This document shows, one piece after another, positions 11,919 through 59,975 of a DNA stretch of 64,000 bases. Under the pieces are notes generated by a model. That model did not search any database. It was not told the origin of the DNA and worked only from the letters and a program-made list of their open reading frames with translations. How positions within the stretch are numbered: position 1 is the stretch's first letter; every line of letters starts with the position of its first letter. The stretch spans positions 1 through 64,000 of the IMG/VR virus record IMGVR_UViG_3300018878_000133; one strand, 5' to 3'. A program made the translations under genes and the position numbers. Origin of the DNA: a virus. Lineage: Duplodnaviria > Heunggongvirae > Uroviricota > Caudoviricetes.

Positions 11919-12473
11919 GTGGCAGGCTCGCAAATTGAACTACAGTATAAATATTCAGGTAAAGGTCCAGTAGATGCTAAATCATTAGTTAAAACCTATA
12001 ATGATTTGCTACTCTCTGAAACCTGGTATAATGATGCAGGTAAAGTATCTGCATATAATGGTATGATTGTAGCTGTTTGGCTAGATAGTGACTCAGCTAG
12101 AAACGGTATATATTTTTTACATGATAGTACTGTAACGAATATTTTAAAAGTACCTGATGTAACAAATGAAGCTAACTGGCATAAGCTTGGAGGTCTTAAC
12201 GACCTACCAGGCTTAGCCGAGCAAGTAGCAACAATTAAGACAAATCTTGAAACGCTTCAGTCTGAAGTAGATGAGCTACAAGATACCTCTACCGTTGTGG
12301 TAGATACAAAAGAGCAGTTGCCAGATAATGGTATTTCCGGAAGACTTTATGTTGTAACAGAAGAGGCTACTACTTATGTTTGGTACAATAATGAATATCT
12401 TCCTGTCGGCGACGGTGGTACAGATGATGCATCTGATATTGAAATTATTGACGGCGGCGGACCGTCAGCTTAA
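11919..12473 (+). CDS. hypothetical structural protein (GTG start)
   Basis: 184-aa ORF; AAGGAGG 9 nt upstream of GTG. Confidence 0.5.
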   Translation: MAGSQIELQYKYSGKGPVDAKSLVKTYNDLLLSETWYNDAGKVSAYNGMIVAVWLDSDSARNGIYFLHDSTVTNILKVPDVTNEANWHKLGGLNDLPGLAEQVATIKTNLETLQSEVDELQDTSTVVVDTKEQLPDNGISGRLYVVTEEATTYVWYNNEYLPVGDGGTDDASDIEIIDGGGPSA

Positions 12474-12537
12474 ATAAAGTTTTATAATTATCGAAAGATA
12501 ATAATAAATAAAAAATATTTTTTAGAGAGGTAAACAA

Positions 12538-13731
12538 ATGGCACAAAAGACATTGAATACTATTATTGTCTTGAGAAATGGCTCTAAAGAAGCATGGGAA
12601 GCTGATAACAGCTATCGCCTACAAGCTGGTGAAGTTGGTGTTGGCTACATGACTGTTGCTAAGACTATTGATGGTGAAACCAAAAATGTTCAGGTTCCAA
12701 TCATCAAAGTCGGTGACGGTTCAGACACTGCTTGGAAAGACCTTCCTCAAGCAGAAGGTGTTTTTGAGGAAGACCAGATCCTCACTTACAACTTCGGACG
12801 TCATACTACTTCCAACGGTTTCGTAAACGCTGGTGGTAAGGGTATGACAACTTCTGAATGGCTACTTGATGCTCTTTCAGAGACAAAAGATCCTGCTGTT
12901 GGTCAACCTTCATTTAGCATGATGGTGAAGACTCATAACGGTAAGTCTAATGGTACTGTTCTTGGTTATGGTATTGTAACTAACACAGGTACTGCTGAAA
13001 TCGGTAGTAAGATTAAGACAATTTCTTGGGATGGCACATTTAGCGCTGGTTCTTATGAATTTGGTTCTAAGATTGGTGACACAAAATATACTGACACTGC
13101 TACAGGTGTAACAGCTTCTTATGACGTTTCTTGTACTAAAGAAGGTACATTTACCGACGGCGTAGATGGTACTGTTACTCTTAATCCGCAGATTTCTATC
13201 AGTTCTACTTCTTCTGCAGAAGTCGCAAAGATTACAAACGTATGTACTTGGGGCGATTCTCCAAGAACTCCTGTTAATAATGTTGGTGCTATAGTTGATA
13301 GTAAGAGGATTAAAGGTAGTTCTTCTTCTAAAGAGATTACTTTCAGCATTACAGGTTTCCGTGAGGGCTTTTTCTTCGGTACTACTTCTGATGTGACTGC
13401 TACAGCTGATCTAGATAGTGCTACTATTAGAGGTCTTGCTAAGACTGGTGCTAAGTATGCAGCTGGTACAAAGAACATGACTGTTCCTGTTGGTGCTTCT
13501 ACTATTATACTTGCTTGTCCTGCAGGCTCTACTGGTGTAACTAAGGTTTATAATAATACTGTTAATGCAGACATGACTACTTCATTCACTAAGACTGAAG
13601 GTATTTCTGTTGGCGGTGCTGATGCTACTGCTACAAGTATTGGTGACTATGCAGAGAATTATAATGTTTGGACATTTACTCCTGCAGAAGCTTATGGCAC
13701 AGAGACTTCGCTCACTGTTACTTTAGGTTAA
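12538..13731 (+). CDS. tail fibre/receptor-binding protein with conserved N-terminal fibre motif
   Basis: 'IVLRNGSKEAWEADNSYRLQAGEVGV...IIKVGDGSDTAWKDLP' matches the shared N-terminal fibre motif; Gly/Thr/Ser-rich beta C-terminus. Confidence 0.65.
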   Translation: MAQKTLNTIIVLRNGSKEAWEADNSYRLQAGEVGVGYMTVAKTIDGETKNVQVPIIKVGDGSDTAWKDLPQAEGVFEEDQILTYNFGRHTTSNGFVNAGGKGMTTSEWLLDALSETKDPAVGQPSFSMMVKTHNGKSNGTVLGYGIVTNTGTAEIGSKIKTISWDGTFSAGSYEFGSKIGDTKYTDTATGVTASYDVSCTKEGTFTDGVDGTVTLNPQISISSTSSAEVAKITNVCTWGDSPRTPVNNVGAIVDSKRIKGSSSSKEITFSITGFREGFFFGTTSDVTATADLDSATIRGLAKTGAKYAAGTKNMTVPVGASTIILACPAGSTGVTKVYNNTVNADMTTSFTKTEGISVGGADATATSIGDYAENYNVWTFTPAEAYGTETSLTVTLG

Positions 13732-19068: not shown

Positions 19069-22000
19069 ATGGCATATAATATCATAAGACATCGTAGAGG
19101 TACTACAGAGGAATGGCAAAAAATTAATTTAGTACCTGAAAACTGTGAACTTGTTATAGAAGAGTGCTTTGATGGGTCTCGTAAATGCAAAATAGGTAAT
19201 GGTAAGACTAAATTTTTAGATTTACCATATGTAGATGACACAACAAAAACTGAGCTACTTAAAAAAATAAATTTAACTGAAAAAACTTTTGACACTAAAG
19301 TATCTAAGATAAAGAGCACACAAGGTGCTTTGCTCGTAACGGTAGAGAATTTAGATGAGAAGCTCACAAAGGCTGAAGAAGCTTTATCCGACTCAATTTC
19401 ATCAAATGTTGAAGTACTTGAAGAAAAACTGGATAAACTCGCAGAATCGACAAGTTCCGATCTAGCTATGAGCATTGCGTCGCTAGATGAAAAGCTTGGT
19501 AAAGAGATAAGTAACAAAGCTACTGGCACAACTAAGCAACTTAAAGCTCTAGAACAAAACGTTAACGGATTAGTGGCTACTTTAGAAGAACACATTCATC
19601 CTGCAATCACAGAACTTGATGTTAAAATTCAGAGCAAAGCAGAAGAACTTGAAAATTTACATTCAGTTGAAGTTCAAAATTTATATAATGAACTGGCTAC
19701 AAAAGCTGCTGAGCTATCTAATAAAATAAATGACTGTATATCAACTGACAAAGCATTACGTAAACTTATTAATGATACAGATACAAAGCAGTCTAAAGAC
19801 CTGCAGGATGCTATTGCTAATTTTGAAATTCAGCTCACCATGGTCGATGATCAGCATAAAAATAAATTGTCTGAGCTTGTACAACAAATAGAGGACCTTA
19901 TAATAGCAGACGGCACATTAGGTCAAGAATTAAATAGCTTTAAACAGCAAAGTTCAGATAGTGTTAATAATATTCTAACTCAGATTAATTCTTTAAATGA
20001 ACAGCTGAGTAATGATGATGTGCTGCTTTTAAATAAAATTTATGAGGTAAGTAATATACTTACTGCAATTACCGCCAGCATACAGGCAGAATTAGATAAT
20101 TTAGAAAAAGATACTAATGATAGATTTACTAGAATTGCTGATGAAATTACAGTAGCTGATCAAGCTCAAAAGGCTTCTTATGAAAATTTATTAACAACAC
20201 TGCTTAATTATGTCACAAAAATCTATGCAGAGATTGCTGATCTCGTAGATGATGATATAATGATTTTAAACAAGGTATATGCAGTAGAAAATGTATTAAA
20301 TGCTAAAATTAACCAGACTAAAAATACTTTAGCTACCGAAATTGCATATGTTTCTGAGGCTCTTAATCAGACTGACAGTCGCTTAACAGATGAAATTGCA
20401 AAAGTAGACGCCAATTTAAATGCTTTATCAGATAAAGTTGATACTAAAATAGTTCAATCAATAACTAATATTGAGAACTCCGTAGCTAAAACAATTGAGG
20501 AAACAAAATCAGAGCTAACTGAAAATGTTGAATCACTTAGATCTACAACTAATCTAACCTTTATAGAAAAACAGGAAACGCTTGATTCTTTAGATAAACA
20601 AATAAAAGATACTCAAAATTCTATAAGCGCTGAAATAAGCGCAGTTACTAGTAGTATTAAAACGAACAAAGAAGAGCTAGAAAAAGAATTATATGAACTT
20701 GGTGAAGTTGTTGAAGCTAACACGACCAGAATAACTGAAACAAATACAGAGCTGGAATTACAGTCAAAACGTATAAATAACCTTATAGCACCTAAGCCGG
20801 GAGAGCTTACTAGAGATGAAGAGGTAATTGACATCAGACTCGGTTATAATGGTATAGATCACGCTTCTGCTGGTGATGCAGTTAGAGCTATTGGTGATGA
20901 CCTCGACGCTCTTAAAGCAAGTCTACCTAGCTATATTCCTTCTAACGCTGTTGATGGTTTGCTCTACGAAGACAATCAGCTATGGTTAACTTCTAAAGAT
21001 ATACCGGTTGGTGACCCAGTAACTATTACTGGAGGCACAGGTGGTGGTGGAAGCATCTCCACGGTTAGAGTAATAAATAATCTTCCTTCTACTTCATTTA
21101 CTATTTCAAAGGGTAATGAAGCATTGATTAATTTCACTTATACATCATTCGAAAATGAAGTACCTACTGGTGATGGTGTTTATTCTGTTGTTATAAATGA
21201 TAAAAAAATTGAGACTCTATCTGGTAGTATTCAACATGGAATAGCTAAGTCTTTGAATGTTGCAGATCATTTAAAAAATGGTTCAAATACTGTTAAGGTA
21301 ACTTGTACTGACCAGTATGGTTCTTTGAGAACTTTAGTATATACCATTTCACAGATTGAACTCCGTCTTGAATCTGCTTTTAATAGTACACAAATTTTTA
21401 ATGATGCTATTACATTCAGATATAAAGTATTTGGGCAGATAGAAAAGACTGCCTATATCTTAGTAGATGGCGCAGAGGTTTCTATTAAAAAACTTGGCGC
21501 AAGTGTTAGTGGTAATGAAATAACCTTGCTAATTCCGAAGCAAGCTCATGGATGCCATAAAATTACTGCTCATGTATCCGCAGTTGTTGGCGACAATACT
21601 GTTACTTCTAATATTCTTGAGTATGAGATTATTTGTATTGAGAATGATAACAATACTGCTATTATCACATCTGTGTATGACTTTGAGGAAGCTACTCAGG
21701 GTGACCTTGTATCAATTCCTTACATGGTTTATGACCCTGCTAAAATTAATAGTGATATCGAACTTATTGTGTACTCTCAGGTAGCTGGCGAATTAATTGA
21801 AATAGACAGAACATCTATTACTGTAGACCGTAGCCAGCAATTCTGGAATACGAGAAAATATCCAAATGGTATTGCAGTATTTGAAATTAGTTATACTTAT
21901 AATTTGTATGGTGTACAAACGACTATTACTAAATCACATACTGTGAGGGTGGCAGAGCTTGAGGTAGATGTATCACCTGAAGAGGACAGTATGCAGCTCT

Positions 22001-45113: not shown

Positions 45114-45162
45114 GTATAACAGGATACATAAAAGTAGTGTAGTTTGGCCTTTATTATTTATT

Positions 45163-45184
45163 GAGTCTATGCTTATTTCTTACT
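45163..45184 (+). repeat. repeat family copy 2 (TGAGTCTATGCTTATTTCTTA)
   Basis: Near-identical 15-nt core ATGCTTATTTCTTA. Confidence 0.5.
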
Positions 45185-45354
45185 ATCAAGCCATATATTT
45201 TTGATTAACAGAAGCTAGACCAAAATGTACGAGCACAACATTTAAAGAAACTGTACTTATTTCTAAACAATTTTATGGGAAAATTATTTAGTCAGTTCTA
45301 AATATTGTGCTCGTTTTAATTTAAATAATAATAAAAATTAAGGAGAATAGTATT

Positions 45355-47352
45355 ATGCAAATTAACGAAACTTTGAAGTCTATTTTAAGAACTCGTCATT
45401 ATTTAGTTATTGATGATAGTGATTTGGCTACAAATAATTCAGCTTATTTAAACGCATATTTGTTAGCTAATTTCGGTATTATTGTAGATAAGCCTAGTTT
45501 TCTTACTAAGACTATGGTTAATCAGATTGACGAGGAATTTCATTTGAATGTTCCTAAGTCTTTTTATGAGAATCCTCAGGATACTAAATATTTTACTTGT
45601 GAAGAGCTTTTGATTGAGCAGATTGTTTCTTATTTTGCATATGGCTCGGACCTTGGTAGAATTGAAATTTTTAAGAAAGATCTTCCTGAATATGTTGTAG
45701 GTGATGAGCTTAAACTTAGAACCTTCTATATTATAAATAATGAAGAAGCTCGTAAAACTCTATACGATATTACGGATGCTTATTGTGCTTACACTCGTCC
45801 GTTTTCGTGTGATGAATTAGCTGAATTTCTTACTTTGTTTACTAATGGTTTTTATGATGGGTCAGAGGAAATTAAGTGTAAAGACAATGTTTTTGCGCTC
45901 CTTCCTACAGATAAAAGATTTGCTAGATTCTTAGATAAAAAAGATATTGTAAAGCTTTCTGTTCAAAGATTTGGAGATAAAGCACAATTCAAGAATTGCA
46001 AAAAGAATCCTTATGCTTGGAAAGAATTACAGATGCATTTCAGTGAAATTGCTTCTTATATTCCTTATGTAAAACATTGTCCTATGTCTAAGAAACAGGC
46101 AAAGTATTTTAATAAAATCGTTTCTCTTGGCAACCTAAAATTACCCAAAGAAACTAATGTGCAGTCCCCTGATAGAGCGGCTCTTAAAATGCTTTCCGAT
46201 GGTGATATTGTTGCTGCGGCTGATATTTATGCTTCTAATGGTTCTATGTTAGAACGTCGCATTAAGATGCTTCTTTCAAGAGCAAATCCTCAGGAAGCTG
46301 TTGAAATTCTTAATATGATTCCTGCATCTAATCCTGTAGTTCTTTATCAGCTTCTTGCAACTCTTTCAGCAGATGATACTGAAGCAAGAACCTTTACTTA
46401 CTTCCATAATAATAAAGTAAAAACTCACAAGGAAACTGACTATGAAGCTAAATGGCGAAAGTCTAGACTTAACGAAAATACACGTAAGTTCCTTGCTTCT
46501 GTTTGTCTTGATAAGATTAAAGAATATTACAAGTCTTTGCCTTCTCTTGGTAAGATTTATGTAGCTGATAATTTCTATAAGTTAGGTATGCCTACTAATA
46601 CTTCTGCTAGCGGTAAGGGTATTGATGTACTTCCTATTGGAAGCCGTATACCTTGTACTGGAAATAATATTAGAACTTTTGTACATTGGAAGAAAGCTTT
46701 TGATATTGATTCTTCTCTTATCGTTGTAGATAAAGATGATAATTTGTCTACTATGGGCTGGTTCAATTATGGTGCAAAATCTTTTGGAAATGATATCCTG
46801 TTCTCCGGTGATATTACTGGTCCTAATGGTGCAGAGTACTTTGATATTAACCTCGACTCTCTTGCCAAAAAAGGTTATAAGTATGTAGTTCAGACTTTCC
46901 ATGGTTACTGCAGTGAACTTAACAGTGGTGAGATTTATGCTGGTTACCAGAATAAAGAAAATCTTAATACTAAAGCTTGGGATCCTAAGAACATTGAGAT
47001 GCAGTTTAAGGTTTATGGTGATTCTCGTGCTTGCGTAGCTTTTGCTATTGACATTCAGAATCGAGAAGTAGTCATTCTTAATCAGATTCTTGACAGTGAT
47101 GATAGAGTAATTAGACCTGAAGGTTTTAAGACTATCGAAAAATACTTACAGGCTAATTATCTTGACGTTAATATTGGTATGATTGCCGAGTGTCGTGGCG
47201 AGCTTGCGGATAATCCTATGGATGCAAACGTTGTATTTGATGATACTTATGCTCCAGTCATTTCTGAAGACTCTGATGATATCGACCCTGTAAAGCAGAC
47301 CATTATCAGAAGTTATGAATTAGAAAAATTAGTAGCTTTTGTTAATAATTAA
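45355..47352 (+). CDS. hypothetical 665-aa protein
   Basis: Long ORF with RBS AAGGAG; no family recognised by eye. First gene after the AT-rich region and immediately upstream of the tRNA island. Confidence 0.5.
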   Translation: MQINETLKSILRTRHYLVIDDSDLATNNSAYLNAYLLANFGIIVDKPSFLTKTMVNQIDEEFHLNVPKSFYENPQDTKYFTCEELLIEQIVSYFAYGSDLGRIEIFKKDLPEYVVGDELKLRTFYIINNEEARKTLYDITDAYCAYTRPFSCDELAEFLTLFTNGFYDGSEEIKCKDNVFALLPTDKRFARFLDKKDIVKLSVQRFGDKAQFKNCKKNPYAWKELQMHFSEIASYIPYVKHCPMSKKQAKYFNKIVSLGNLKLPKETNVQSPDRAALKMLSDGDIVAAADIYASNGSMLERRIKMLLSRANPQEAVEILNMIPASNPVVLYQLLATLSADDTEARTFTYFHNNKVKTHKETDYEAKWRKSRLNENTRKFLASVCLDKIKEYYKSLPSLGKIYVADNFYKLGMPTNTSASGKGIDVLPIGSRIPCTGNNIRTFVHWKKAFDIDSSLIVVDKDDNLSTMGWFNYGAKSFGNDILFSGDITGPNGAEYFDINLDSLAKKGYKYVVQTFHGYCSELNSGEIYAGYQNKENLNTKAWDPKNIEMQFKVYGDSRACVAFAIDIQNREVVILNQILDSDDRVIRPEGFKTIEKYLQANYLDVNIGMIAECRGELADNPMDANVVFDDTYAPVISEDSDDIDPVKQTIIRSYELEKLVAFVNN

Positions 47353-47377
47353 TATATTTTATTGTAATATATTTATA

Positions 47378-47399
47378 GAGACTATGCTTATTTCTTAAC
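47378..47399 (+). repeat. repeat family copy 3 (TAGAGACTATGCTTATTTCTTA)
   Basis: Same core motif, directly upstream of the permuted tRNA-like element. Confidence 0.5.
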
Positions 47400-47408
47400 G
47401 CCTTTTAA

Positions 47409-47480
47409 GCGGGTGGTCGTTGGTTCGAATCCAACCATTTCATCTGTTAGGTGAAATGTAGCTCAGCGGTAGAGCACCTT
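47409..47480 (+). ncRNA. permuted tRNA-like element (T-arm + 3' acceptor strand joined by a 5-nt loop to 5' acceptor strand + D-arm)
   Basis: 'GTTGG-TTCGAAT-CCAAC CATTTCATC tgtta GGTGAAATG TAGC-TCAGCGGTA-GAGC'. GGTGAAA pairs with TTTCATC (one G-U) across a closing loop; no anticodon arm. Confidence 0.4.
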
Positions 47481-47569
47481 TTAGCTAGTCCAAATATTTT
47501 TAATAATTTATTAAATTATTAATTTAATAAGTGCTAAATTTATAAAGAACACATTGTATAATAAAATAC

Positions 47570-48230
47570 GTTAGGTGCCACGAAGCGTTGGTTTAGGCTG
47601 TGATTTAAGGTCAACGCCTAACTCTAGCGAAGAAGCAGCAGTGGTAAATGGAGTGTGATGAACAGCCTTAAATTGGTTTGTAAGTGTTGAAAACCTTTCA
47701 ATGAGATAAGTAATGCTTATGAGATTGATAAAAAACTTAAAAAAATAAATTCGGTTGAACTCCGATATGTCTATGAGGATGCACTGTGGAATAGATGATT
47801 AGTTGGATGCTCCGTAAGGGTCATTACAAGGTCATTTCCTCATAGATGAACCGCCCGCAGGCCATTAACTAGCATAGGCCGTTCCGTTTTATTATTGGCG
47901 GATGATTAAGGACAGTAGGGACAACTTCGCCTGCCGAGAGAATGAAGCTCGCTCAGGTAAAAGCCATAAGCTATCTGGTAACAGAACGTGGAATTAATGA
48001 TGAGAGATAAGTTGTCAGATAATCAGTGGGAAAGATTATCATTTATTCCGTAGTGAGTATAAAGCCATATTAGAATACGCTACAACGTACAACTTTGGAA
48101 ACGGACGCCTGTACAGCGTGACCCAAAGGTAGCAGAGTTTAGGCATAATAGTTTAATGGTAGAACACGGCCGAGTGTTGGGCTGGGTGGCGGTTCAATTC
48201 CGAATGTTGCCGACCAAAAAGAAAAACTCT
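47570..48230 (+). ncRNA. ORF-free GC-elevated structured segment (candidate large ncRNA/intron-like element)
   Basis: ~660 nt with no ORF >=60 aa in any frame. TGTATAAT promoter at 47565; long-range inverted repeats (GCGTTG...CAACGC; TCTATGAGGA...TCCTCATAGA); contains a tRNA-like 5' half (GGCATAATAGTTTAATGGTAGAAC) near its end. Confidence 0.35.
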
Positions 48231-48437
48231 TAAAAGTATTTAGATATGAAAAAGCAAGGTAAACGAATTAGATGCTGGTCACAAGAGTTAATGATAGAAG
48301 AAAGACCGTTGGAAGTGGTTGCAAACGCGAAGCCAACCCTTGCTCCTAAAGGTGAGAGTCCTTTAGCGGAAAAAATATTTTTAAAATTTTTTTAAAACAC
48401 TATAAATTTTAAGTAATTAGATTGTATAATATAACGC

Positions 48438-48458
48438 ATAGAGCCAATGCTTATTTCT
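48438..48458 (+). repeat. repeat family copy 4 (TAGAGCCAATGCTTATTTCT)
   Basis: Preceded by TTGTATAAT (48422-48430) and followed by TTGGCCTTTAT. Confidence 0.5.
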
Positions 48459-48505
48459 GCTGAATAGCGATCATCTTTTAAATGAATTTAGCTTGGCCTT
48501 TATAT

Positions 48506-48644
48506 GCGGGATTGGCGGAATAGGCAGACGCAAGGGACTTGCTTGATGACATAGTGTCTATCTAGTAGGGGCAGTACCTACATCAAGTACCAAAAATCCC
48601 TCGGTAGTGATACCGTATCGGTTCAAGTCCGATATCCCGCACCA
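48506..48644 (+). tRNA. tRNA-Leu-like gene with ~52-nt insertion in the anticodon loop
   Basis: Acceptor GCGGGAT/ATCCCGC + ACCA; Leu-type D-arm TGGCGGAATAGGCAGACGC; long variable hairpin CGGTAGTGATACCG; T-arm ATCGG-TTCAAGT-CCGAT. Anticodon stem AGGGA/TCCCT encloses 59 nt, including a 7-bp hairpin CTTGATG...CATCAAG. Confidence 0.5.
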
Positions 48645-48727
48645 GACCTTTATGTTTTTCAGTTTCTGTTGAATGGGTTAAATAGAAACGACCGTTTTGC
48701 TAGTTTTAAGTGCATAAACTAGTTTAT

Positions 48728-48804
48728 GGACCATTAGCTCAGTTGGTTAGAGCTCCCGGCTCATAACCGGTCGGTCCTAGGTTCGAGTCCTAGATGGTCC
48801 ACCA
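48728..48804 (+). tRNA. tRNA-Met (anticodon CAT)
   Basis: GGACCAT-TA-GCTC-AGTTGGTTA-GAGC...CTCATAA...CTAGG-TTCGAGT-CCTAG-ATGGTCC-A-CCA; clean cloverleaf. Confidence 0.85.
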
Positions 48805-48965: not shown

Positions 48966-49117
48966 GGCGCGTTGGTCAAGCGGTTAAGACACCGCCCTTT
49001 CGTTAGATTAGCCAAAAGGTAAGGCAGGCCACTAGAGATAGAGGTTATGTGTCAGTTCGAGTCTGACATCTAGCACCAACGGCGGTATCACGGGTTCGAT
49101 TCCCGTACGCGTCACCA
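48966..49117 (+). tRNA. tRNA-Glu-like gene (anticodon-loop CTTTC..AC) interrupted by a 77-nt tRNA-shaped insertion
   Basis: Outer gene GGCGCGT-TG-GTCAAGCGGTTAAGAC-A-CCGCC-[..]-GGCGG-TATCA-CGGGT-TCGATTC-CCGTA-CGCGTCA-CCA. Insert 49012-49088 has its own acceptor GTTAGAT/ATCTAGC, D-arm GCC-AAAAGGTAA-GGC, T-arm GTCAG-TTCGAGT-CTGAC and terminal ACCA. Confidence 0.5.
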
Positions 49118-50346: not shown

Positions 50347-50420
50347 TATGCGGAGATAGTTTAATTGGATAGAACGCCGGCCTTTTGGTCGGAAGTATAG
50401 GTTCAAATCCTACAACCGTA
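50347..50420 (+). ncRNA. tRNA-like element with 6-nt 'anticodon' loop and unpaired acceptor
   Basis: GCGGAGA-TA-GTTT-AATTGGATA-GAAC-G-CCGGC-CTTTTG-GTCGG...ATAGG-TTCAAAT-CCTAC-AACCGTA; 5'/3' ends not complementary. Confidence 0.35.
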
Positions 50421-50736
50421 ACATAAGGACATCCTTCCTGATATTTAAAAATCACACAAATGGATCGAAGCTTAACGTAATCGGAGCGTACGGTGTTAGT
50501 CACACAAATCTTAAACGTATGACTGGTTTCTATGAAGGGTAAAGAGATAAAGGTTTCCCTTAATCTGGACCGACCAGAGTAGATGTGATACTACATAAAC
50601 AAAAGCCTAACCTGATTTGATTTATGTCAGTCAAGGGGTCGACTCAACTGCAGAACGAGTTACTCATAAATCTTTTTCTTTATAAAATAAATTCTTAAAT
50701 AAATTCTTGATGCTCTGCTGCGACATAAAGATGTTT

Positions 50737-52812: not shown

Positions 52813-52910
52813 CACGATATAGCTTATGTGGTAAAGCATCCGAATCCCAGGAAAAAGACCAAGATTGATTTCTTGAAGATAAGTAGGTTCAAGTCCTGCT
52901 GTCGTGTCCA
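52813..52910 (+). ncRNA. over-long tRNA-like element (~97 nt) without a canonical anticodon arm
   Basis: Acceptor CACGATA/TGTCGTG + T-CCA, D-arm GCTT-ATGTGGT-AAGC, T-arm GTAGG-TTCAAGT-CCTGC. The 44-nt central region forms CAAGA-TTGATT-TCTTG instead of a 5+7+5 anticodon arm. Confidence 0.35.
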
Positions 52911-55062: not shown

Positions 55063-55630
55063 GAGGAGCCAGGTGGGTTTCGTAGAGTTACCGTTGAATA
55101 ACTATGTGCTTGTCGTTTTAAGAAACGAGTGGGTATAAAGCCCCACAAATATCAAATAGTAAGGGCACATGCGAGCTATGAAACCAGAAGTTAAGTAGTG
55201 AAGGAAGCATGGGTGTGGCTGGTTACCGCTTTATCAAAAATCATAGTGTTAACTATGTGAGGTAAAGATGTCTATGTGGTGATATCTACTGTGAACTGTT
55301 GTGCGAGTTCACCTATTTGATAGGGCTGGTTGAAAGACCCTGGTCCATCGAGTAAGGGAACATATCCCTTAACAAAATCCTTAATGGTCATTGTGCTGAC
55401 AATGTGGTAATCTGAAACATAGAATTTTGGTGTAAAGACTAAAATGTTTGGGCAAACGATAAATGCTCCCAAATTTGCTTATTAAGGAATAAGATAGTTG
55501 GCAGACAACGATAAAATCAGTTATAGCCTGTACCCTTGAGAAACTCGTATCAGGTAATTTATATTACTGTGGATAAGCAGGCAAGTAGTGAAATAAAAGG
55601 GTAAGAGAATAAACTACATTATAAAATATA
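55063..55630 (+). ncRNA. ORF-free GC-elevated segment (candidate structured RNA)
   Basis: ~570 nt between tRNA-Asn and tRNA-Met-like. No plus-strand ORF >=60 aa; only a 66-aa minus-strand ORF of doubtful reality. Many G/C-rich local hairpins (e.g. GGGTATAAAGCCCCAC). Confidence 0.3.
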
Positions 55631-56168: not shown

Positions 56169-56313
56169 GGCTCCGTAGTTCAGATGGTTAGAACGCCTGC
56201 CTGTGCTTTATTAGTTTAATAGTAAAACACTCTTATAAAGAGATGCTAGTGCAAGACTAGTATAAGGCTCCACACGCAGGAGGTCGTCGGTTCGATCCCG
56301 ATCGGAGTCGCCA
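56169..56313 (+). tRNA. tRNA (anticodon-loop remnants CTGTG..AC or CT..CACAC: His/Val-like) interrupted by a 68-nt tRNA-shaped insertion
   Basis: Outer gene GGCTCCG-TA-GTTC-AGATGGTTA-GAAC-G-CCTGC-[75-nt loop]-GCAGG-AGGTC-GTCGG-TTCGATC-CCGAT-CGGAGTC-G-CCA. Insert carries acceptor-like CTTTAT/ATAAGG, D-arm-like GTTT-AATAGTA-AAAC and T-arm-like CTAGT-GCAAG-ACTAG. Confidence 0.5.
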
Positions 56314-56665: not shown

Positions 56666-56705
56666 CCTAGTTAGTAATGCAGCTGCTACTAAGTTACTAA
56701 CTAGG
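56666..56705 (+). promoter_or_regulatory. large imperfect palindrome overlapping RBS/start region of the GIY-YIG gene
   Basis: CCTAGTTAGTAA-tGCAGCTGCtactaag-TTACTAACTAGG; 12-bp perfect arms around the palindromic GCAGCTGC core. Confidence 0.5.
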
Positions 56706-56713
56706 TGATTCTT

Positions 56714-57385
56714 ATGGCTTATATTTATAAAATTACAAATAATCTTAATGGCAAGGCTTACATAGGTCAAACACTTTATTCATTAGAAAAAAGGTTTGCA
56801 GAGCATTTAAAAGACAGCGCTAGAACTGGTCACAGTAAAAGACCTCTGTACAAAGCTATGTTAAAGTATGGTTATTCAGCTTTTACTATAGAAGTTGTTG
56901 AAGAACTAGCTGATGATCCAGAGCTTTTAAATGACCGAGAAATTTATTGGATTACGAAATTTCATACTTTTTGTAAAGATCCGCTTGGTCCTGGTTATAA
57001 CGCTACTTTGGGTGGCGGAAGCAAGATGCTTTATGATAGACGCGCGATTATTCAGTATTTACGTAATAATAATTGTGTTAAGGATGCTGCAGAAGTTTTT
57101 AAGTGCACAAAAGACACAATTATCGATATTGCTAAAGCTGCTAATATTCAAGTTAAGTCTAGCCCGGATTTAGTAAAAGAGCTTTATAGTAAACCAATAA
57201 ATATTTATGATTTAAAAAATAATTTAATTCATAGTGTTACTAATTCTTATGAAGCTGAGCAGTGGATTCGAGATAGTGGTATTTCTGATGCTAAAGGCGG
57301 CGCAATTAGAGCTCACATTCTAGAGGTTTGCAAAGGTAAACGAAAAACTGCTTATGGCTTTATATGGAGATACTTGAAAGATTAA
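56714..57385 (+). CDS. GIY-YIG homing endonuclease (free-standing, seg-like)
   Basis: 'YIYKITNNLNGKAYIGQT...RFAEH' GIY-YIG catalytic motif at the N-terminus and a basic C-terminal DNA-binding region. Track ORF starts at GTG 56705; the ATG at 56714 is preferred. Confidence 0.8.
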   Translation: MAYIYKITNNLNGKAYIGQTLYSLEKRFAEHLKDSARTGHSKRPLYKAMLKYGYSAFTIEVVEELADDPELLNDREIYWITKFHTFCKDPLGPGYNATLGGGSKMLYDRRAIIQYLRNNNCVKDAAEVFKCTKDTIIDIAKAANIQVKSSPDLVKELYSKPINIYDLKNNLIHSVTNSYEAEQWIRDSGISDAKGGAIRAHILEVCKGKRKTAYGFIWRYLKD

Positions 57386-57689: not shown

Positions 57690-57738
57690 AAAGGTTTTTA
57701 AATATTTTTTAAAATTAAATTAAAATTTTAAAAAACAT

Positions 57739-57750
57739 ATTGTATAATAT
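57739..57750 (+). promoter_or_regulatory. extended -10 promoter TTGTATAATATA
   Basis: TGn-TATAAT consensus; starts an ORF-free unit that ends at the 58451 terminator. Confidence 0.5.
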
Positions 57751-58450
57751 AATATCAACAATTTGTACCTTGAAAGATAAATATAATTACTAACTCAGTG
57801 CTAAACACAAGACACGCTTCTTGTGCTGAGAATGCAACTAAGCGAAAGCTGAACAATGTGTGATGGTAACATAAGAGGGATACCTCGGAAACCGCGCTAC
57901 TTATATATGCGAGTATATGAGTTAAGGGTAGGACCCGAAACATATGTTGTATGTGCTGATGTTATAGCAAGTAATGGTAGGAAGAGTCTCGTGAGAGTAA
58001 TAGAAAGCTTGGTTAATAGCTGAGCCGAATCCAAGTTAGGGTTTAGTTGGTGACTGTATTACACCTTGGAAATGCCAATAATCTCATTTGTCGTGAACCA
58101 TAGAAATGTGGGTATAAGAGATTCAAGTAACCTCCTAGTAGCCGAAGACAATTAACAAAGAATTAATGCTAGTATATAATTAGGAATACTGATATTAATT
58201 TTTTCTGAATAGACGGTGAGGGGTGCAGGTAATCAATCCTGTCATAGTTTATGTAGTCCAGGGCTTGGCCGTTAACCAAGTACCCAGATTTCGTGGCAAG
58301 AAGTTAGGGGTCGCTCCCCGAAGCTCAGACTTGTCATCTATGTGACCGAATGTACTTGAATATAACAAGTGGTAAGGCGAAGGCCTAGGAATGTATTATA
58401 TTTATCTTTGAATGTATAAGGTGTACCTCCTTTGTTTATTTTGCAAGGAT
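57751..58450 (+). ncRNA. candidate long non-coding RNA (promoter-to-terminator unit without ORF)
   Basis: ~700 nt, GC noticeably higher than flanking DNA, bounded by the TTGTATAAT promoter and a strong intrinsic terminator. No plus-strand ORF >=60 aa. Confidence 0.35.
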
Positions 58451-58492
58451 TTTTTTTAAGAAAGTTACTTAGATATAAGTAACTTTCTTTTT
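58451..58492 (+). terminator. rho-independent terminator
   Basis: AAGAAAGTTACTTA-gata-TAAGTAACTTTCTT perfect 14-bp hairpin followed by T8. Confidence 0.8.
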
Positions 58493-58579
58493 TTTATTGT
58501 ATGATATTATAGTAAAAGTTTATGATCAAGTAATGATGAATTGGAATATCTTTATCGATTATGTATGGGAGAATTTAAA

Positions 58580-59131
58580 ATGAAAAAACCATTAGTTGTT
58601 AATTTAACAGGAGCTCCAGGTGCTGGAAAAAGCACTGGTGCAGCAACTATTTTTGCAGAGCTTAAAAAAGCTGGTGTTAATGCAGAACTTGTAACAGAAT
58701 TTGCTAAAGATAAGACCTGGGAGCATAATATTATGGCTCTAGGTTGTCAAGAATATGTGTTTGGTAAACAGTCTTATAGATTACGTAGATGCCGAGATGA
58801 TGTCGATGTGATTGTGACTGATAGCCCGCTTCCTCTTAGTATTATTTATAATACTAATCCTGCAATAACTGAGTCTTATCCAAGGTTAGTCATGGATGTT
58901 TATAATACATATGAAAATATTAATTTCTTTATTAACAGAGTTAAACCTTACAACCCTAAAGGCCGAAATCAGACAGAAGAAGAAAGTGATCGTATAAGTG
59001 TCCGCATTAAAGATTTATATAAAGGTCTTGGTATTGATTATTTTGAAATTAACGGCGATAATGAAGGTTATGACTATGCAGTTAAGACTGTATTAAGCAT
59101 ACTAGCAGGAGGTATAAAATATGAGTACTAA
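58580..59131 (+). CDS. P-loop NTPase (NadR/AAA_28-like kinase fold)
   Basis: Walker A 'LTGAPGAGKSTGAA'; Walker-B-like 'VDVIVTDSPL'; RBS GGGAGAA 7 nt upstream of the ATG at 58580. The track ORF begins earlier at 58541. Confidence 0.55.
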   Translation: MKKPLVVNLTGAPGAGKSTGAATIFAELKKAGVNAELVTEFAKDKTWEHNIMALGCQEYVFGKQSYRLRRCRDDVDVIVTDSPLPLSIIYNTNPAITESYPRLVMDVYNTYENINFFINRVKPYNPKGRNQTEEESDRISVRIKDLYKGLGIDYFEINGDNEGYDYAVKTVLSILAGGIKYEY

Positions 59132-59975
59132 AGATGCACTTGGTGATAGAATGAAAGAATTCTATGAAAATAGGAGTAAACATTATCTACCTAGACGAGT
59201 TCCTGTAATCATTAGACTTGACGGCAAAGCTTTCCACACCTTCACTAAAGGTCTTAAGAGGCCTTATGACGAGATTTTCCACAATACTATGAATGCGACT
59301 ATGAAGTATCTCTGTGAGAATATCCAGGGTTGTAAGCTTGGTTATACACAGTCAGACGAAATCACTCTTCTTCTCACAGACTATGACACTCTTGATACCG
59401 ATGCTTGGTTTGGTTATAATGTGCAGAAAATGTGCAGCGTGTCAGCAAGCATGGCAACAATGGTTTTCAATAAGTATCTTAGAGAATTAATTGATAATTA
59501 TTTACAGTCTGATGTATGGGTAAACCATTATTGGGAAGAAGATGTTGAGAAATATGCTAATACATTAAAGAAGGCTATTGACAATGGTGCAATGTTTGAT
59601 TCTCGCTGTTTTAACATTCCTAAAGAAGAAGTTACCAACTGCTTCATCTGGCGTCAGCAGGATGCTACTCGCAACGCAATTCAGATGCTTGGTCAGTGCA
59701 ACTTCTCTCATAAGGAACTACACGGTAAGTCTTGCAATGACATTCAAGATATGTTAATGACTCAGAGAGGTATCAATTTTAATGATATGCCTACTGAGTT
59801 TAAACGTGGTGTCTGCTGTAATCGTGTAGAAAAAGAAGATATTTGTATTGATTTTAAAACAAAAGAAGAGACTCGCTGTATGAGAAGTGAATGGGTAATC
59901 GATAAAGAAATTCCCATTTTTACTCAAGATAGATACTACATTGAACGGTGGGTTTACTCAGAAGGAGATAAATAA
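59121..59975 (+). CDS. Thg1-like protein (tRNA-His guanylyltransferase / 3'-5' nucleotidyltransferase family)
   Basis: 'VPVIIRLDGKAFHTFTKGL..PYDE.F...M' and 'GYTQSDEITLLL' match the Thg1 palm-domain signatures (V.RIDG..FH.F...F.KP.D; GESDEYSF). Confidence 0.7.
   Translation: MSTKDALGDRMKEFYENRSKHYLPRRVPVIIRLDGKAFHTFTKGLKRPYDEIFHNTMNATMKYLCENIQGCKLGYTQSDEITLLLTDYDTLDTDAWFGYNVQKMCSVSASMATMVFNKYLRELIDNYLQSDVWVNHYWEEDVEKYANTLKKAIDNGAMFDSRCFNIPKEEVTNCFIWRQQDATRNAIQMLGQCNFSHKELHGKSCNDIQDMLMTQRGINFNDMPTEFKRGVCCNRVEKEDICIDFKTKEETRCMRSEWVIDKEIPIFTQDRYYIERWVYSEGDK

What the first reader, a model, noticed from the sequence alone, without database searches (positions are those of the whole stretch)
47570..48230. 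660-nt ORF-free, GC-elevated segment with long-range inverted repeats (candidate ribozyme or intron-like RNA)
The segment is preceded by TGCTAAATTTATA and TTGTATAAT promoter-like elements. It has no ORF >=60 aa in any frame and is visibly more GC-rich than surrounding coding DNA. It contains nested long-range complementarities (GCGTTG...CAACGC; ATTTAAGG...CCTTAAAT; TCTATGAGGA...TCCTCATAGA). Its 3' end bears a tRNA 5'-half-like sequence. Two further units (55063-55630 and 57751-58450) share these properties; the latter is bounded by a promoter and a strong terminator.
Basis: seen in the sequence. Interest (0 to 1): 0.6.

Follow-up and report, generated by a model that had tools for sequence, protein, structure and literature searches.

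The report
Three new phage structured RNAs
The flagged gene-free stretch is not one RNA or an intron but three separate, strongly conserved folded RNAs in the tRNA island of a large uncultivated gut or rumen phage; none is in the RNA family catalogue, and the largest carries a built-in tRNA look-alike and a loop that probably lets two copies stick together.

Summary
In detail: 47570-48230 has no ORF above 35 aa, is 42% G+C against 34-36% in the neighbouring genes, and follows a promoter-like element that is conserved in relatives. The interpretation of one ribozyme or intron-like RNA does not hold.

Related phage contigs show three independent plus-strand RNA modules that occur apart, in other orders and in tandem:
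- M1, 47569-47672.
- M2, 47751-48040.
- M3, 48045-48372.

Each has strong covariation support, with 92-94% of cells paired and 0 of 500 shuffles reaching the observed covariation score. None matches any Rfam 15 family, including group I/II introns, RNase P, tmRNA, HEARO, GOLLD and ROOL.

M3 is about 330 nt. It has a closing helix, a GUAC/GUAC pseudoknot, an embedded tRNA-like domain (48142-48212) and a T-arm-like hairpin. One loop holds a 6-nt or longer palindrome in 31 of 34 homologues, in nine forms, which suggests kissing-loop self-association as seen in OLE and GOLLD.

Unit 55063-55630 contains a DUF3800-XI motif.

Function is unknown. The closest analogues are GOLLD and ROOL.

The parts
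47532..47562 (+). Promoter-like element: TGCTAAATTTATA, then 9 nt, then TTGTATAAT. It ends about 7 nt before M1.
   Evidence: Read directly. The same two motifs precede M1 in L002, L004, L019 and L119. An exact TATAAT lies within 48 nt upstream of M1 in 12 of 28 copies, against 4.4% of control windows. The generic scan is not significant. Function is inferred.
47569..47672 (+). M1, a structured RNA module of about 105 nt. Closing helix P1 is 47569-75 / 47666-72. Invariant helix P2 (UGCCAC/GUGGUA, with an invariant G-U) is 47576-81 / 47641-46. It also has a CGAAGC junction, a variable inserted hairpin domain at 47587-47636, and a conserved 19-nt internal loop AAUGGAGUGUGAUGAACAG at 47647-47665.
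   Evidence: A 23-specified-base pattern gave 25 exact hits in IMG/VR. An HMM finds it in 39 of 119 fetched loci, some in tandem. P1 covaries: score 0.284 against 0.070 in shuffles, 0 of 500. No Rfam match.
47673..47750 (+). AU-rich spacer (23% G+C) with one local hairpin.
   Evidence: Not conserved. L002, L004 and L019 have an unrelated 50-60-nt hairpin between M1 and M3 instead. G+C.
47751..48040 (+). M2, a structured RNA module of about 290 nt. That helix is crossed by a long-range helix ACUGU/ACAGU, which makes a pseudoknot. It also has a long-range helix GACAACUU/AAGUUGUC and a terminal hairpin with the invariant loop AGUGGGAAA.
   Evidence: Seven distinct homologues: L054, L094, L035, L119, L115, L117 and the window. 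43 pairs are 92.7% paired. 23 pairs have changes on both sides. 0 of 500 shuffles reach the score, and slid controls give 32-42%. No Rfam match.
48045..48372 (+). M3, an ornate structured RNA of about 330 nt, closed by helix P1 (48045-50 / 48367-72).
   Evidence: An HMM finds it in 60 of 119 fetched loci and in 4 MAG contigs. 54 pairs in 10 helices are 94.3% paired. 37 pairs have changes on both sides. 0 of 500 shuffles reach the score, and slid controls give 34-44%. No Rfam family other than tRNA was found in 17 further M3 loci.
48051..48066 (+). Invariant single-stranded segment UAGUGAGUAUAAAGCC of M3.
   Evidence: Invariant or nearly so in 22 of 22 aligned homologues.
48087..48114 (+). Two GUAC tetramers (48087-90 and 48111-14, the second in a hairpin loop) that probably pair as a pseudoknot.
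   Evidence: Conserved in 21 of 22 aligned homologues. L092 has GGCC at both sites. That is a single covariation event, and a contact between two molecules cannot be excluded.
48142..48212 (+). tRNA-like domain embedded in M3, sitting on helix P5 (48134-40 / 48224-30). The D- and T-arms are canonical, the anticodon loop is not, and the domain is followed by GACCA.
   Evidence: Rfam tRNA 24.8 bits against a gathering score of 29, and no ARAGORN call. In homologues the sequence varies freely. ARAGORN calls it a tRNA in 13 of 38. It passes the Rfam score in L059 (46.6 bits), L063 (45.2) and L058 (34.1). P5 covaries.
48319..48324 (+). Self-complementary hexamer UUGCAA in an 8-nt hairpin loop of M3, a candidate symmetric kissing-loop contact.
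   Evidence: A perfect palindrome of 6 nt or more sits at the same place in 31 of 34 homologues. Nine types occur: UUGCAA, AUGCAU, UGCGCA, CUGCAG, CUGCGCAG, UGUACA, GCUAGC, CGCGCG, GGCGCC. Mean length is 6.1 nt against 3.2 in shuffles. PMC12286853 uses the same argument for OLE L9.3 and GOLLD L21a.
48346..48366 (+). T-arm-like hairpin of M3: a 7-bp stem and the 7-nt loop UGAGAGU (consensus UGAAAGU), directly next to the 3' strand of P1.
   Evidence: 99.4% paired, and 4 of 7 pairs have compensatory changes. The G-C closing pair and the U1/A5 loop positions resemble a T-loop. That resemblance is my reading and was not tested.
48246..48395 (+). A 49-aa ORF that lies inside M3 and is not a gene.
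   Evidence: In 30 homologues the equivalent frame has a median length of 9 aa, and only 3 reach 40 aa. Substitutions preserve helices, not residues. No Pfam hit.

Best explanation
The flagged segment is part of a string of three separate non-coding RNA genes or modules, M1, M2 and M3. They are read left to right from a phage promoter-like element at 47532-47562. They sit at the start of the 11-kb tRNA and non-coding-RNA island of an uncultivated phage of about 220 kb from a gut or rumen sample.

Shown:
- Each module is a self-contained, conserved fold closed by its own helices.
- The modules occur independently of one another in other phages.
- None matches a catalogued RNA family.
- The ORFs inside them are not conserved.

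Inferred:
- The three are made as one precursor and cut apart by the tRNA-processing machinery, because M3 sits in tRNA arrays with tRNA-like spacing.
- M1 is a promoter-proximal leader module whose conserved 19-nt internal loop binds a protein or a ligand.
- M3 has a tRNA-minihelix-like end (P1 plus the T-arm-like hairpin) capping a pseudoknotted body. It carries a covalently attached tRNA-like domain and pairs with a second copy of itself through a palindromic loop.
- M3 would therefore work as a self-associating RNA particle that presents a tRNA mimic. The likely role is phage takeover or protection of the translation and tRNA machinery, as is suspected for GOLLD and ROOL.

The biochemical function is not known.
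For: - Modularity. Relatives conserve 47380-47670 and 48044-48260 but not the middle. L002, L004 and L019 have M1 and M3 only 50-60 nt apart. L010 and L012 have a tmRNA and several tRNAs between them. L117 has the order M2, M1, M3 spread over 4.5 kb. M1 occurs in tandem in L049, L051, L052 and L055.
- Structure. Covariation counts for M1, M3 and M2 all give 0 of 500 shuffles reaching the score. They pair 92-94% of cells, against 26-53% for slid controls.
- Strand. M1 P2 has an invariant G-U, and many G-U pairs occur in M2 and M3.
- Not catalogued. Rfam searches of the window, of relatives and of 17 further loci find nothing. GenBank phages give no match. No paper in the library describes these RNAs; full-text hits to the motif strings were in unrelated papers.
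- Processing context. In 6 loci a tRNA ends 3-9 nt before M3 P1. In 19 of 38 loci the next tRNA starts 7-14 nt after it, always on the same strand.
- Self-association. The loop palindrome covaries, and the same argument has precedent for OLE and GOLLD.
- M1 follows an exact TATAAT ten times more often than control windows do.
Against: - There are no expression or RNA-end data, so the transcript boundaries, co-transcription and processing are all inferred.
- The single-sequence folding energy is not better than shuffles.
- M2 rests on only 7 distinct sequences.
- The window's own M1 closing helix is weak: 4 of 7 positions pair.
- The palindromic loop could have a role other than dimerisation. 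The sequences are related, so the nine palindrome types are the real count of events, not the 31 sequences.
- The GUAC/GUAC pairing rests on one double change.
- A published catalogue of 10,006 candidate phage RNAs (PMC10690425) could not be searched by sequence and may already list parts of these modules.
Confidence: 0.8

Rival explanations
1. One reading: 47570-48230 is one large RNA, either a self-splicing intron or another ribozyme.
For: The stretch is long, ORF-free and G+C-rich, with inverted repeats. It lies among tRNA genes, some of which do carry insertions.
Against: No group I or II intron, RNase P or known self-cleaving ribozyme model hits at E <= 10. The three parts have independent distributions and their own closing helices. 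The flanks are not halves of a gene. Where M2 is missing, another hairpin sits in its place, which is not a clean excision. The conserved RNA continues to 48372, beyond the stated end.
Confidence: 0.03
2. M3 is a very divergent member of a known large tRNA-associated RNA family (tmRNA, GOLLD or ROOL) that the Rfam models fail to recognise.
For: M3 shares their habitat in phage tRNA islands. Like tmRNA, its paired 5' and 3' ends sit next to a T-arm-like hairpin and enclose a pseudoknotted body. Like some GOLLD RNAs, it has an internal tRNA. It shows palindromic loop covariation, as GOLLD L21a does.
Against: No tmRNA, GOLLD or ROOL hit at E <= 10 on the window, nor at gathering scores in about 20 M3 loci. 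L010 and L012 carry a bona fide tmRNA as well as M3, and the window carries a bona fide ROOL as well as M3. There is no conserved tag reading frame, and no CCA after P1. M3 is 330 nt, against about 580 for ROOL and over 800 for GOLLD.
Confidence: 0.07
3. M1 is a cis-acting regulatory leader, either a riboswitch or a protein-binding attenuator, that controls whatever lies downstream. It is not a stand-alone RNA.
For: M1 has about 35 invariant nucleotides around an internal loop plus a variable peripheral stem, which is the typical anatomy of a ligand-binding RNA. It lies just after -10-like elements. In L036, L038, L041, L048 and L049 it sits 40-60 nt before a ribosome-binding site and a start codon. 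Tandem copies occur.
Against: No expression platform (terminator or anti-RBS helix) is conserved after P1. In many loci the next feature is a tRNA or another RNA, not an ORF. No candidate ligand or protein is in view.
Confidence: 0.25
4. The region encodes small proteins, for example the 49-aa ORF at 48246-48395, and the conservation is at the protein level.
For: An ATG, GTG or TTG followed by AAAAAG is conserved at 48246 in 30 of 30 homologues. A short MKK[QR]C-type peptide could be read from it.
Against: The frame stops after a median of 9 codons, and only 3 of 30 reach 40 aa. Substitutions are compensatory in helices and change the encoded residues, for example GESPL against DVISM. No Shine-Dalgarno sequence was noted upstream by eye. 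No ORF above 35 aa lies in M1 or M2.
Confidence: 0.02
5. The modules are decaying remnants of tRNA genes or mobile elements and have no function of their own.
For: tRNA islands are recombination hot spots. A homing endonuclease gene lies in the island. The modules are shuffled between phages.
Against: There are long runs of invariant nucleotides and dozens of compensatory pair changes across divergent phages whose neighbouring protein is only 50-80% identical. This indicates purifying selection on the folds.
Confidence: 0.03

Closest known systems
GOLLD RNA (Rfam RF01998)
   Same: It is a large, elaborately folded RNA of unknown function encoded by phages and prophages next to tRNA islands. 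tRNAs are sometimes embedded in an internal linker. Symmetric kissing loops are detected as palindrome-to-palindrome covariation, and it forms RNA-only homo-oligomers (PMC12286853).
   Different: There is no sequence or model similarity. M3 is about 330 nt, against over 800 nt. The helices, the closing P1 with its T-arm-like hairpin, and the invariant UAGUGAGUAUAAAGCC segment have no described GOLLD counterpart. Oligomerisation of M3 is only inferred.
ROOL RNA (Rfam RF03087)
   Same: It has the same habitat: it was first found in rumen metagenomes and occurs in phages near tRNA islands. It has multiple junctions and pseudoknots and assembles by kissing loops (PMC5737381, PMC12286853). A true ROOL lies 9.4 kb downstream in this same island.
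   Different: The ROOL model does not hit M1, M2 or M3. BLAST finds no similarity between the window's ROOL and the flagged segment 47565-48145, which holds M1, M2 and the first 100 nt of M3, and the M3 HMM does not hit the ROOL region. M3 is shorter, and ROOL has no embedded tRNA-like domain.
tmRNA (Rfam RF00023 and relatives)
   Same: In both, the 5' and 3' ends pair next to a T-arm-type hairpin and enclose a pseudoknotted body. Both are encoded in phage tRNA islands.
   Different: M3 has no encoded CCA, no conserved tag ORF, and no hit from ARAGORN or Rfam. M3 coexists with a genuine tmRNA in L010 and L012. M3 also has a complete second tRNA-like cloverleaf inside it.
Stable RNAs C and D of the phage T4 tRNA gene cluster (from my own knowledge, not checked here)
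   Same: They are non-tRNA stable RNAs of unknown function, encoded inside a phage tRNA cluster and matured from the same precursors as the tRNAs.
   Different: They are much smaller, about 120-140 nt, and no sequence relation was tested. T4-like phages gave no match in GenBank phage searches.
YrlA / bacterial Y RNA (Rfam RF02553)
   Same: It is an RNA that combines a long stem formed by its ends with a tRNA-like domain. A YrlA-like RNA (39 bits, below the gathering score of 69) lies immediately upstream at 47391-47510.
   Different: M1, M2 and M3 do not hit the YrlA model. No Ro60 or TROVE protein was found: the adjacent 665-aa protein has no Pfam, PDB-sequence or PDB-fold match.

Membership tests
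Group I intron | Conserved catalytic core (P3-P9 with the guanosine site in P7), detectable with the Rfam Intron_gpI model. | tested here: not met
   No hit at E <= 10 in 47300-48750.
Group I / group II intron | Interrupts a host gene whose exons are contiguous in intron-less relatives. | tested here: not met
   The flanks are independent RNAs with their own closing helices. Relatives that lack M2 have an unrelated hairpin at that place, and M2 occurs alone elsewhere.
Group II intron | Domain V/VI and usually a reverse-transcriptase ORF. | tested here: not met
   No Rfam hit. No ORF above 35 aa.
RNase P RNA | Universally conserved regions CR-I to CR-V forming P4, detectable with the Rfam RNase P models. 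| tested here: not met
   No hit at E <= 10. The GGUGAGAGUCC string in M3 is a hairpin loop with a covarying stem, not a P4 strand.
tmRNA | A tRNA-like domain made from the 5' and 3' ends, with a T-arm and a 3' CCA. | tested here: inconclusive
   P1 and an adjacent T-arm-like hairpin are present and covary. No CCA follows P1. ARAGORN and Rfam make no call.
tmRNA | An internal tag-peptide reading frame ending in a stop codon. | tested here: not met
   No conserved frame. Median 9 codons from the only conserved start-like triplet.
GOLLD RNA | The conserved 3' domain recognised by Rfam RF01998. | tested here: not met
   No hit at E <= 10 on the window or at gathering scores on about 20 M3 loci.
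GOLLD RNA | Location in a phage or prophage tRNA island, an optional embedded tRNA, and covarying symmetric kissing loops. | tested here: met
   for context, for the embedded tRNA-like domain, for the palindromic loop. These are resemblances of kind, not proof of homology.
ROOL RNA | [quoted passage not shown] | tested here: not met
Not met for 47570-48372.
HEARO / OMEGA guide RNA | A match to the HEARO model and an adjacent IscB, IsrB or TnpB gene. | tested here: not met
   No Rfam hit. The neighbours are RNAs, a 665-aa protein with no Pfam domain and a lysozyme-like protein.
tRNA (embedded domain 48142-48212) | A cloverleaf scoring above the Rfam gathering score, with a 7-nt anticodon loop. 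| tested here: not met
   24.8 bits against 29, no ARAGORN call, and an anticodon loop of 8-9 nt. Some homologues do pass: L059, L063 and L058.
Known self-cleaving ribozymes (hammerhead, twister, twister-sister, pistol, hatchet, HDV-like, hairpin) | A match to the family's Rfam covariance model. | tested here: not met
   No hit at E <= 10. Catalysis itself cannot be tested with these tools.

The most novel reading that the evidence does not exclude
M3 defines a new class of phage-encoded, self-assembling RNA. It would be a 330-nt pseudoknotted particle that forms dimers or larger assemblies through an HIV-DIS-like palindromic kissing loop and displays a covalently tethered tRNA mimic. It would be unrelated in sequence and fold to GOLLD and ROOL but convergent with them. 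M1 and M2 would be two further uncatalogued structured RNA classes, and M1 could be a new ligand- or protein-sensing leader.
Probability: 0.45. Interest if true: 0.8.

Novelty: new variant of a known kind. Interest (0 to 1): 0.66.

Why it matters
Large, intricately folded bacterial and phage RNAs are few, and nearly every one has turned out to do unusual chemistry or, in recent cryo-EM work, to build RNA-only assemblies. This region offers three well-supported new folds in one transcription unit, next to a ROOL RNA and a Y-RNA-like RNA.

M3 is small enough (330 nt) for easy synthesis and structural work. It has a built-in, testable prediction: self-association through a loop palindrome that evolution has swapped at least nine times. 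Its covalently attached tRNA mimic and its tRNA-like placement in arrays link it to GOLLD. It could help to explain why large phages surround their tRNA genes with big RNAs. One idea is decoys or shields against host nucleases that target tRNAs. Another is scaffolds for tRNA processing.

There is also a practical point. Gene callers annotate a false 49-aa protein inside M3.

Tried and rejected
1. Single-sequence folding of 47565-48145 on both strands gave z-scores of -0.94 and -0.18, which is uninformative.
3. GenBank phages have no DNA match to the region or to a consensus-like M3.
4. A single-protein pattern scan of IMG/VR for the neighbouring 665-aa protein found nothing. It worked only with an alignment.
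5. I tested whether the 665-aa protein next to the YrlA-like RNA is a Ro60 or TROVE protein. It has no Pfam hit and no PDB sequence hit. The AlphaFold model (pLDDT 70) has no PDB fold match at E <= 0.001. The idea is dropped.
6. Short string similarities suggested a fragmented RNase P RNA across M1, M2 and M3 (GGUGCCA, AGAUGAA, ACAGAAC, GAAAGUCC). I rejected this because the modules are distributed independently, M1 is often tandem, Rfam is negative, and the GAAAGUCC string is a hairpin loop.
7. Hammerhead-like and kink-turn or C/D-box-like readings of M1 (GAUGA and CGAAG): by inspection the required nucleotides are not conserved or are in the wrong register.
8. No complement of 10 nt or more to the conserved single-stranded segments was found within the island, so trans base-pairing is not supported.
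9. The literature gave no paper describing these RNAs. Full-text searches for the motif strings hit only unrelated papers. The supplements of the 10,006-candidate catalogue are not held, so prior listing cannot be excluded.
10. A covariance model of M3 was not built, because a model of about 330 positions looked too long for the tool's calibration limit. HMMs and regular expressions were used instead.
Full report
**Setting.** The window is part of a metagenomic contig of about 220 kb (ENA ERZ27248370 k141_4000472). It carries phage genes: lysozymes, an amidase, very large structural ORFs, and a homing endonuclease. From about 47.36 kb to 58.4 kb, all on the + strand, lies an island with 18 ARAGORN tRNAs and further Rfam tRNA hits. 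The island also holds a ROOL RNA (57770-58406, 286 bits) and a DUF3800-XI motif (55322-55368). The flagged segment sits at the left edge of this island. It follows a 665-aa protein of unknown function and a Y-RNA-like RNA (47391-47510, YrlA model, 39 bits, below the gathering score).

**Check of the observation.**
- The segment has no ORF longer than 35 aa.
- It is 42.1% G+C, against 33.8% for the gene upstream and 35.9% for the window.
They are conserved upstream of the homologous RNA in relatives, although a generic sigma-70 scan is not above chance.
- All three inverted repeats exist. Only TCTATGAGGA/TCCTCATAGA proves to be a conserved helix.
- Folding energy is not better than shuffled sequence, z = -0.94.

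**Known families are excluded.** cmscan against all 4227 Rfam 15 families at E <= 10 over 47300-48750 returned only four things: the YrlA-like hit, weak tRNA hits (including 48142-48212 at 24.8 bits), a tRNA with a 56-nt insertion, and noise. There was no group I or II intron, RNase P, tmRNA, HEARO, GOLLD, ROOL or self-cleaving ribozyme. The same holds for relatives that lack the middle part, for L004, L010 and L012, and for 17 further loci, where all 117 hits are tRNAs.

**Relatives were found.**
- The upstream 665-aa protein has 623 homologues. An alignment of 20 of them (A1) retrieved 18 metagenome loci and 11 IMG/VR loci. Exact-protein look-ups added closer contigs, L115-L120.
- nhmmer with the window region showed that relatives conserve 47380-47670 and 48044-48260 but not the roughly 375 nt between them.
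- In L002, L004 and L019 the two conserved parts are 50-60 nt apart, joined by an unrelated hairpin.
- In L010 and L012 they are more than 3 kb apart, with a genuine tmRNA and several tRNAs in between.
- The middle part has its own homologues in L054, L094, L035, L115, L117 and L119. In L094, L035 and L117 these are not in the window's order.
- The segment is therefore three modules: M1, M2 and M3.

**M1 (47569-47672).**
- A pattern with 23 specified bases taken from its 3' half found 25 IMG/VR stretches. An HMM finds M1 in 39 of the 119 fetched loci, sometimes two or three in a row.
- Anatomy: a closing helix NNNN-AGG/CCU-NNNN, stacked on an invariant helix UGCCAC/GUGGUA with an invariant G-U. 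Then come a CGAAG(C) junction, a variable inserted domain of 40-130 nt, and an almost invariant 19-nt internal loop AAUGGARYGNGAURAACAG.
- The closing helix covaries: score 0.284 against 0.070 in shuffles, 0 of 500, with slid registers at 26-53% paired.
- An exact TATAAT lies within 48 nt upstream in 12 of 28 copies, against 4.4% of control windows. M1 therefore tends to start transcripts.
- Downstream it is followed by tRNAs, other RNAs or, in some phages, an ORF with a ribosome-binding site.

**M2 (47751-48040).** Seven distinct sequences are available.
- 43 pairs in 7 helices are 92.7% paired. 23 pairs have changes on both sides. 0 of 500 shuffles reach the covariation score, and slid controls give 32-42%.
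It crosses a perfectly covarying long-range helix, which makes a pseudoknot.

**M3 (48045-48372).**
- A 16-base pattern plus an HMM found M3 in 60 of the 119 fetched loci.
- A longer gapped pattern found it in 4 MAG contigs labelled Ruminococcus (rumen), Oscillospiraceae, Acetatifactor and Paludibacteraceae. These point to gut and rumen Bacillota and Bacteroidota samples. The contigs may be mis-binned phages.
- On 22 diverse sequences, 54 pairs in 10 helices are 94.3% paired. 37 pairs have changes on both sides. 0 of 500 shuffles reach the score, and slid controls give 34-44%.
- Features in order:
  1. P1, made by the two ends.
  2. The invariant segment UAGUGAGUAUAAAGCC.
  3. A helix UGCCAC/GUGGCA.
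  4. Two GUAC tetramers, one of them in a hairpin loop. Both become GGCC in L092, so they probably form a pseudoknot.
  5. Helix P5, carrying a tRNA-like cloverleaf whose sequence varies freely between phages.
  6. Three more covarying helices.
  7. A 7-bp hairpin with a T-loop-like heptaloop, directly next to the 3' strand of P1.
It contains the 49-aa ORF 48246-48395, which is not conserved: median 9 codons in 30 homologues.

**Two further properties of M3.**
- It behaves like a tRNA gene in arrays. In 6 loci a tRNA ends 3-9 nt before P1. In 19 of 38 loci the next tRNA starts 7-14 nt after P1, on the same strand.
- The 7-8-nt loop at 48318-48325 holds a perfect palindrome of 6 nt or more at the same position in 31 of 34 homologues. 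Nine different palindromes occur, and the mean length is 6.1 nt against 3.2 in shuffles. Adjacent nucleotides in one loop cannot pair with each other. Covariation that preserves self-complementarity therefore points to pairing between two molecules. The cryo-EM study of OLE, ROOL and GOLLD used this same argument to support their symmetric kissing loops (PMC12286853). The loop (purine, six-base palindrome, purine) also resembles the HIV-1 dimerisation loop. That comparison is from my own knowledge.

**Mechanism.**
- Shown: there are three independent, conserved folds on the + strand. They are not protein-coding and are not in Rfam.
- Inferred: they are transcribed from the conserved promoter-like element and separated by tRNA-processing enzymes. 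M1 is a leader module with a binding pocket. M3 is a self-associating particle that displays a tRNA mimic.
- Speculative, by analogy with GOLLD and ROOL and from the surrounding genes: a role in manipulating or protecting the translation and tRNA machinery. The surrounding genes include a tRNA-His guanylyltransferase-like gene at 59121-59975, and relatives carry a tmRNA.

**Comparison with known systems.** The nearest systems in kind are GOLLD and ROOL: phage tRNA-island RNAs with kissing-loop assemblies, and in GOLLD sometimes an internal tRNA. M3 fails their model-based membership test and coexists with ROOL in this window. tmRNA shares the topology of paired ends next to a T-arm, but M3 lacks CCA and a tag frame and coexists with a true tmRNA in L010 and L012.

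**Novelty.**
- No Rfam family and no GenBank phage matches these RNAs.
- No paper in the searchable library describes them. Full-text hits to the motif strings were in unrelated papers.
- A 2023 catalogue of 10,006 candidate phage RNAs could not be checked by sequence.
- I rate the finding as a new variant of a known kind: large structured RNAs of phage tRNA islands.

**Dead ends.** The 665-aa neighbour is not recognisably Ro60. Several motif-level resemblances were considered and rejected: RNase P, hammerhead, kink-turn, SRP and the 23S GTPase centre. The SRP and 23S resemblances were dropped because the shared GAAGCAGC string is not conserved among M1 copies.

Noticed in passing
window 47375-47510: A Y-RNA-like RNA (Rfam YrlA, 39 bits against a gathering score of 69, E = 1e-6) with a permuted T-arm/D-arm tRNA-like domain. 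It lies directly after the 665-aa protein gene. The synteny is conserved in L002, L004, L010, L012, L019, L115, L117, L119 and L120. The protein shows no Ro60/TROVE signal in Pfam or PDB sequences, and its AlphaFold model has no PDB fold match.
   Followed up: partly
window 45160-45190, 47375-47395, 48438-48500: The 5' stem strand of the Y-like RNA (GAGnCnATGCTTATTTCT) occurs three times. The copy at 48438-48500 looks like a short stem-loop version without a tRNA-like domain, and it follows a TTGTATAAT element.
   Followed up: no
window 48506-48641, 48966-49114, 52813-52907, 56169-56310: These tRNA genes have insertions estimated at about 25-80 nt. The first looks like tRNA-Leu(UAA) with a 56-nt insertion in the anticodon loop, at the site where cyanobacterial tRNA-Leu carries a group I intron. 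The insertion is far too short to be a group I intron. ARAGORN misses these genes.
   Followed up: no
It has a promoter-like site at 57720-57748 and a 14-bp terminator with a T8 tail at 58458-58489. L115 has a homologue at 21128-21767.
   Followed up: yes
Its first 250 nt are conserved in L115 (19801-20017) and in L117/L118 (18073-18324), so they are probably another RNA module. A DUF3800-XI motif hit follows at 55322-55368 (40.1 bits against a gathering score of 37.8). The rest, 55370-55630, had no homologue among the fetched loci.
   Followed up: partly
window 59121-59975, 56705-57385, 58541-59131: Genes flanking or inside the RNA island: a tRNA-His guanylyltransferase (Thg1-like, PHROG E = 2e-95), a GIY-YIG homing endonuclease and a thymidylate kinase. 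In my reading of one homologue (L103), the tRNA-like domain embedded in M3 seems to have an extra unpaired position above its acceptor stem. This is reminiscent of the -1 position of tRNA-His. It is an untested idea.
   Followed up: no
window 50349-50422: ARAGORN reports a tRNA of undetermined identity with a two-base anticodon (tt). Rfam scores the same place at only 32 bits.
   Followed up: no
L010 7720-8163, L012 13561-14010: Relatives carry a genuine tmRNA (72 and 58 bits) between M1 and M3. The 64-kb window has none.
   Followed up: no
L117 / L118 / L120 about 12270-12830: In these relatives a two-gene cassette is inserted right after the Y-like RNA. It is an 85-aa ORF plus a 100-aa YafQ/ParE-type toxin. 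This shows how the island acquires cargo.
   Followed up: no
L058 1371-1651: A short M3 variant (281 nt) lacks the whole GUAC pseudoknot arm. Its helix P2 is capped instead by a palindromic loop UUGGCCAA. This hints that the GUAC elements may also mediate contacts between molecules.
   Followed up: no
window 48246-48266 and M3 homologues: The triplet at the start of the spurious ORF is ATG, GTG or TTG in 30 of 30 homologues. It is followed by AAAAAG, so a 6-7-codon frame (MKK[QR]C..) recurs. This is most likely a by-product of conserved RNA sequence, but it was not tested.
   Followed up: partly
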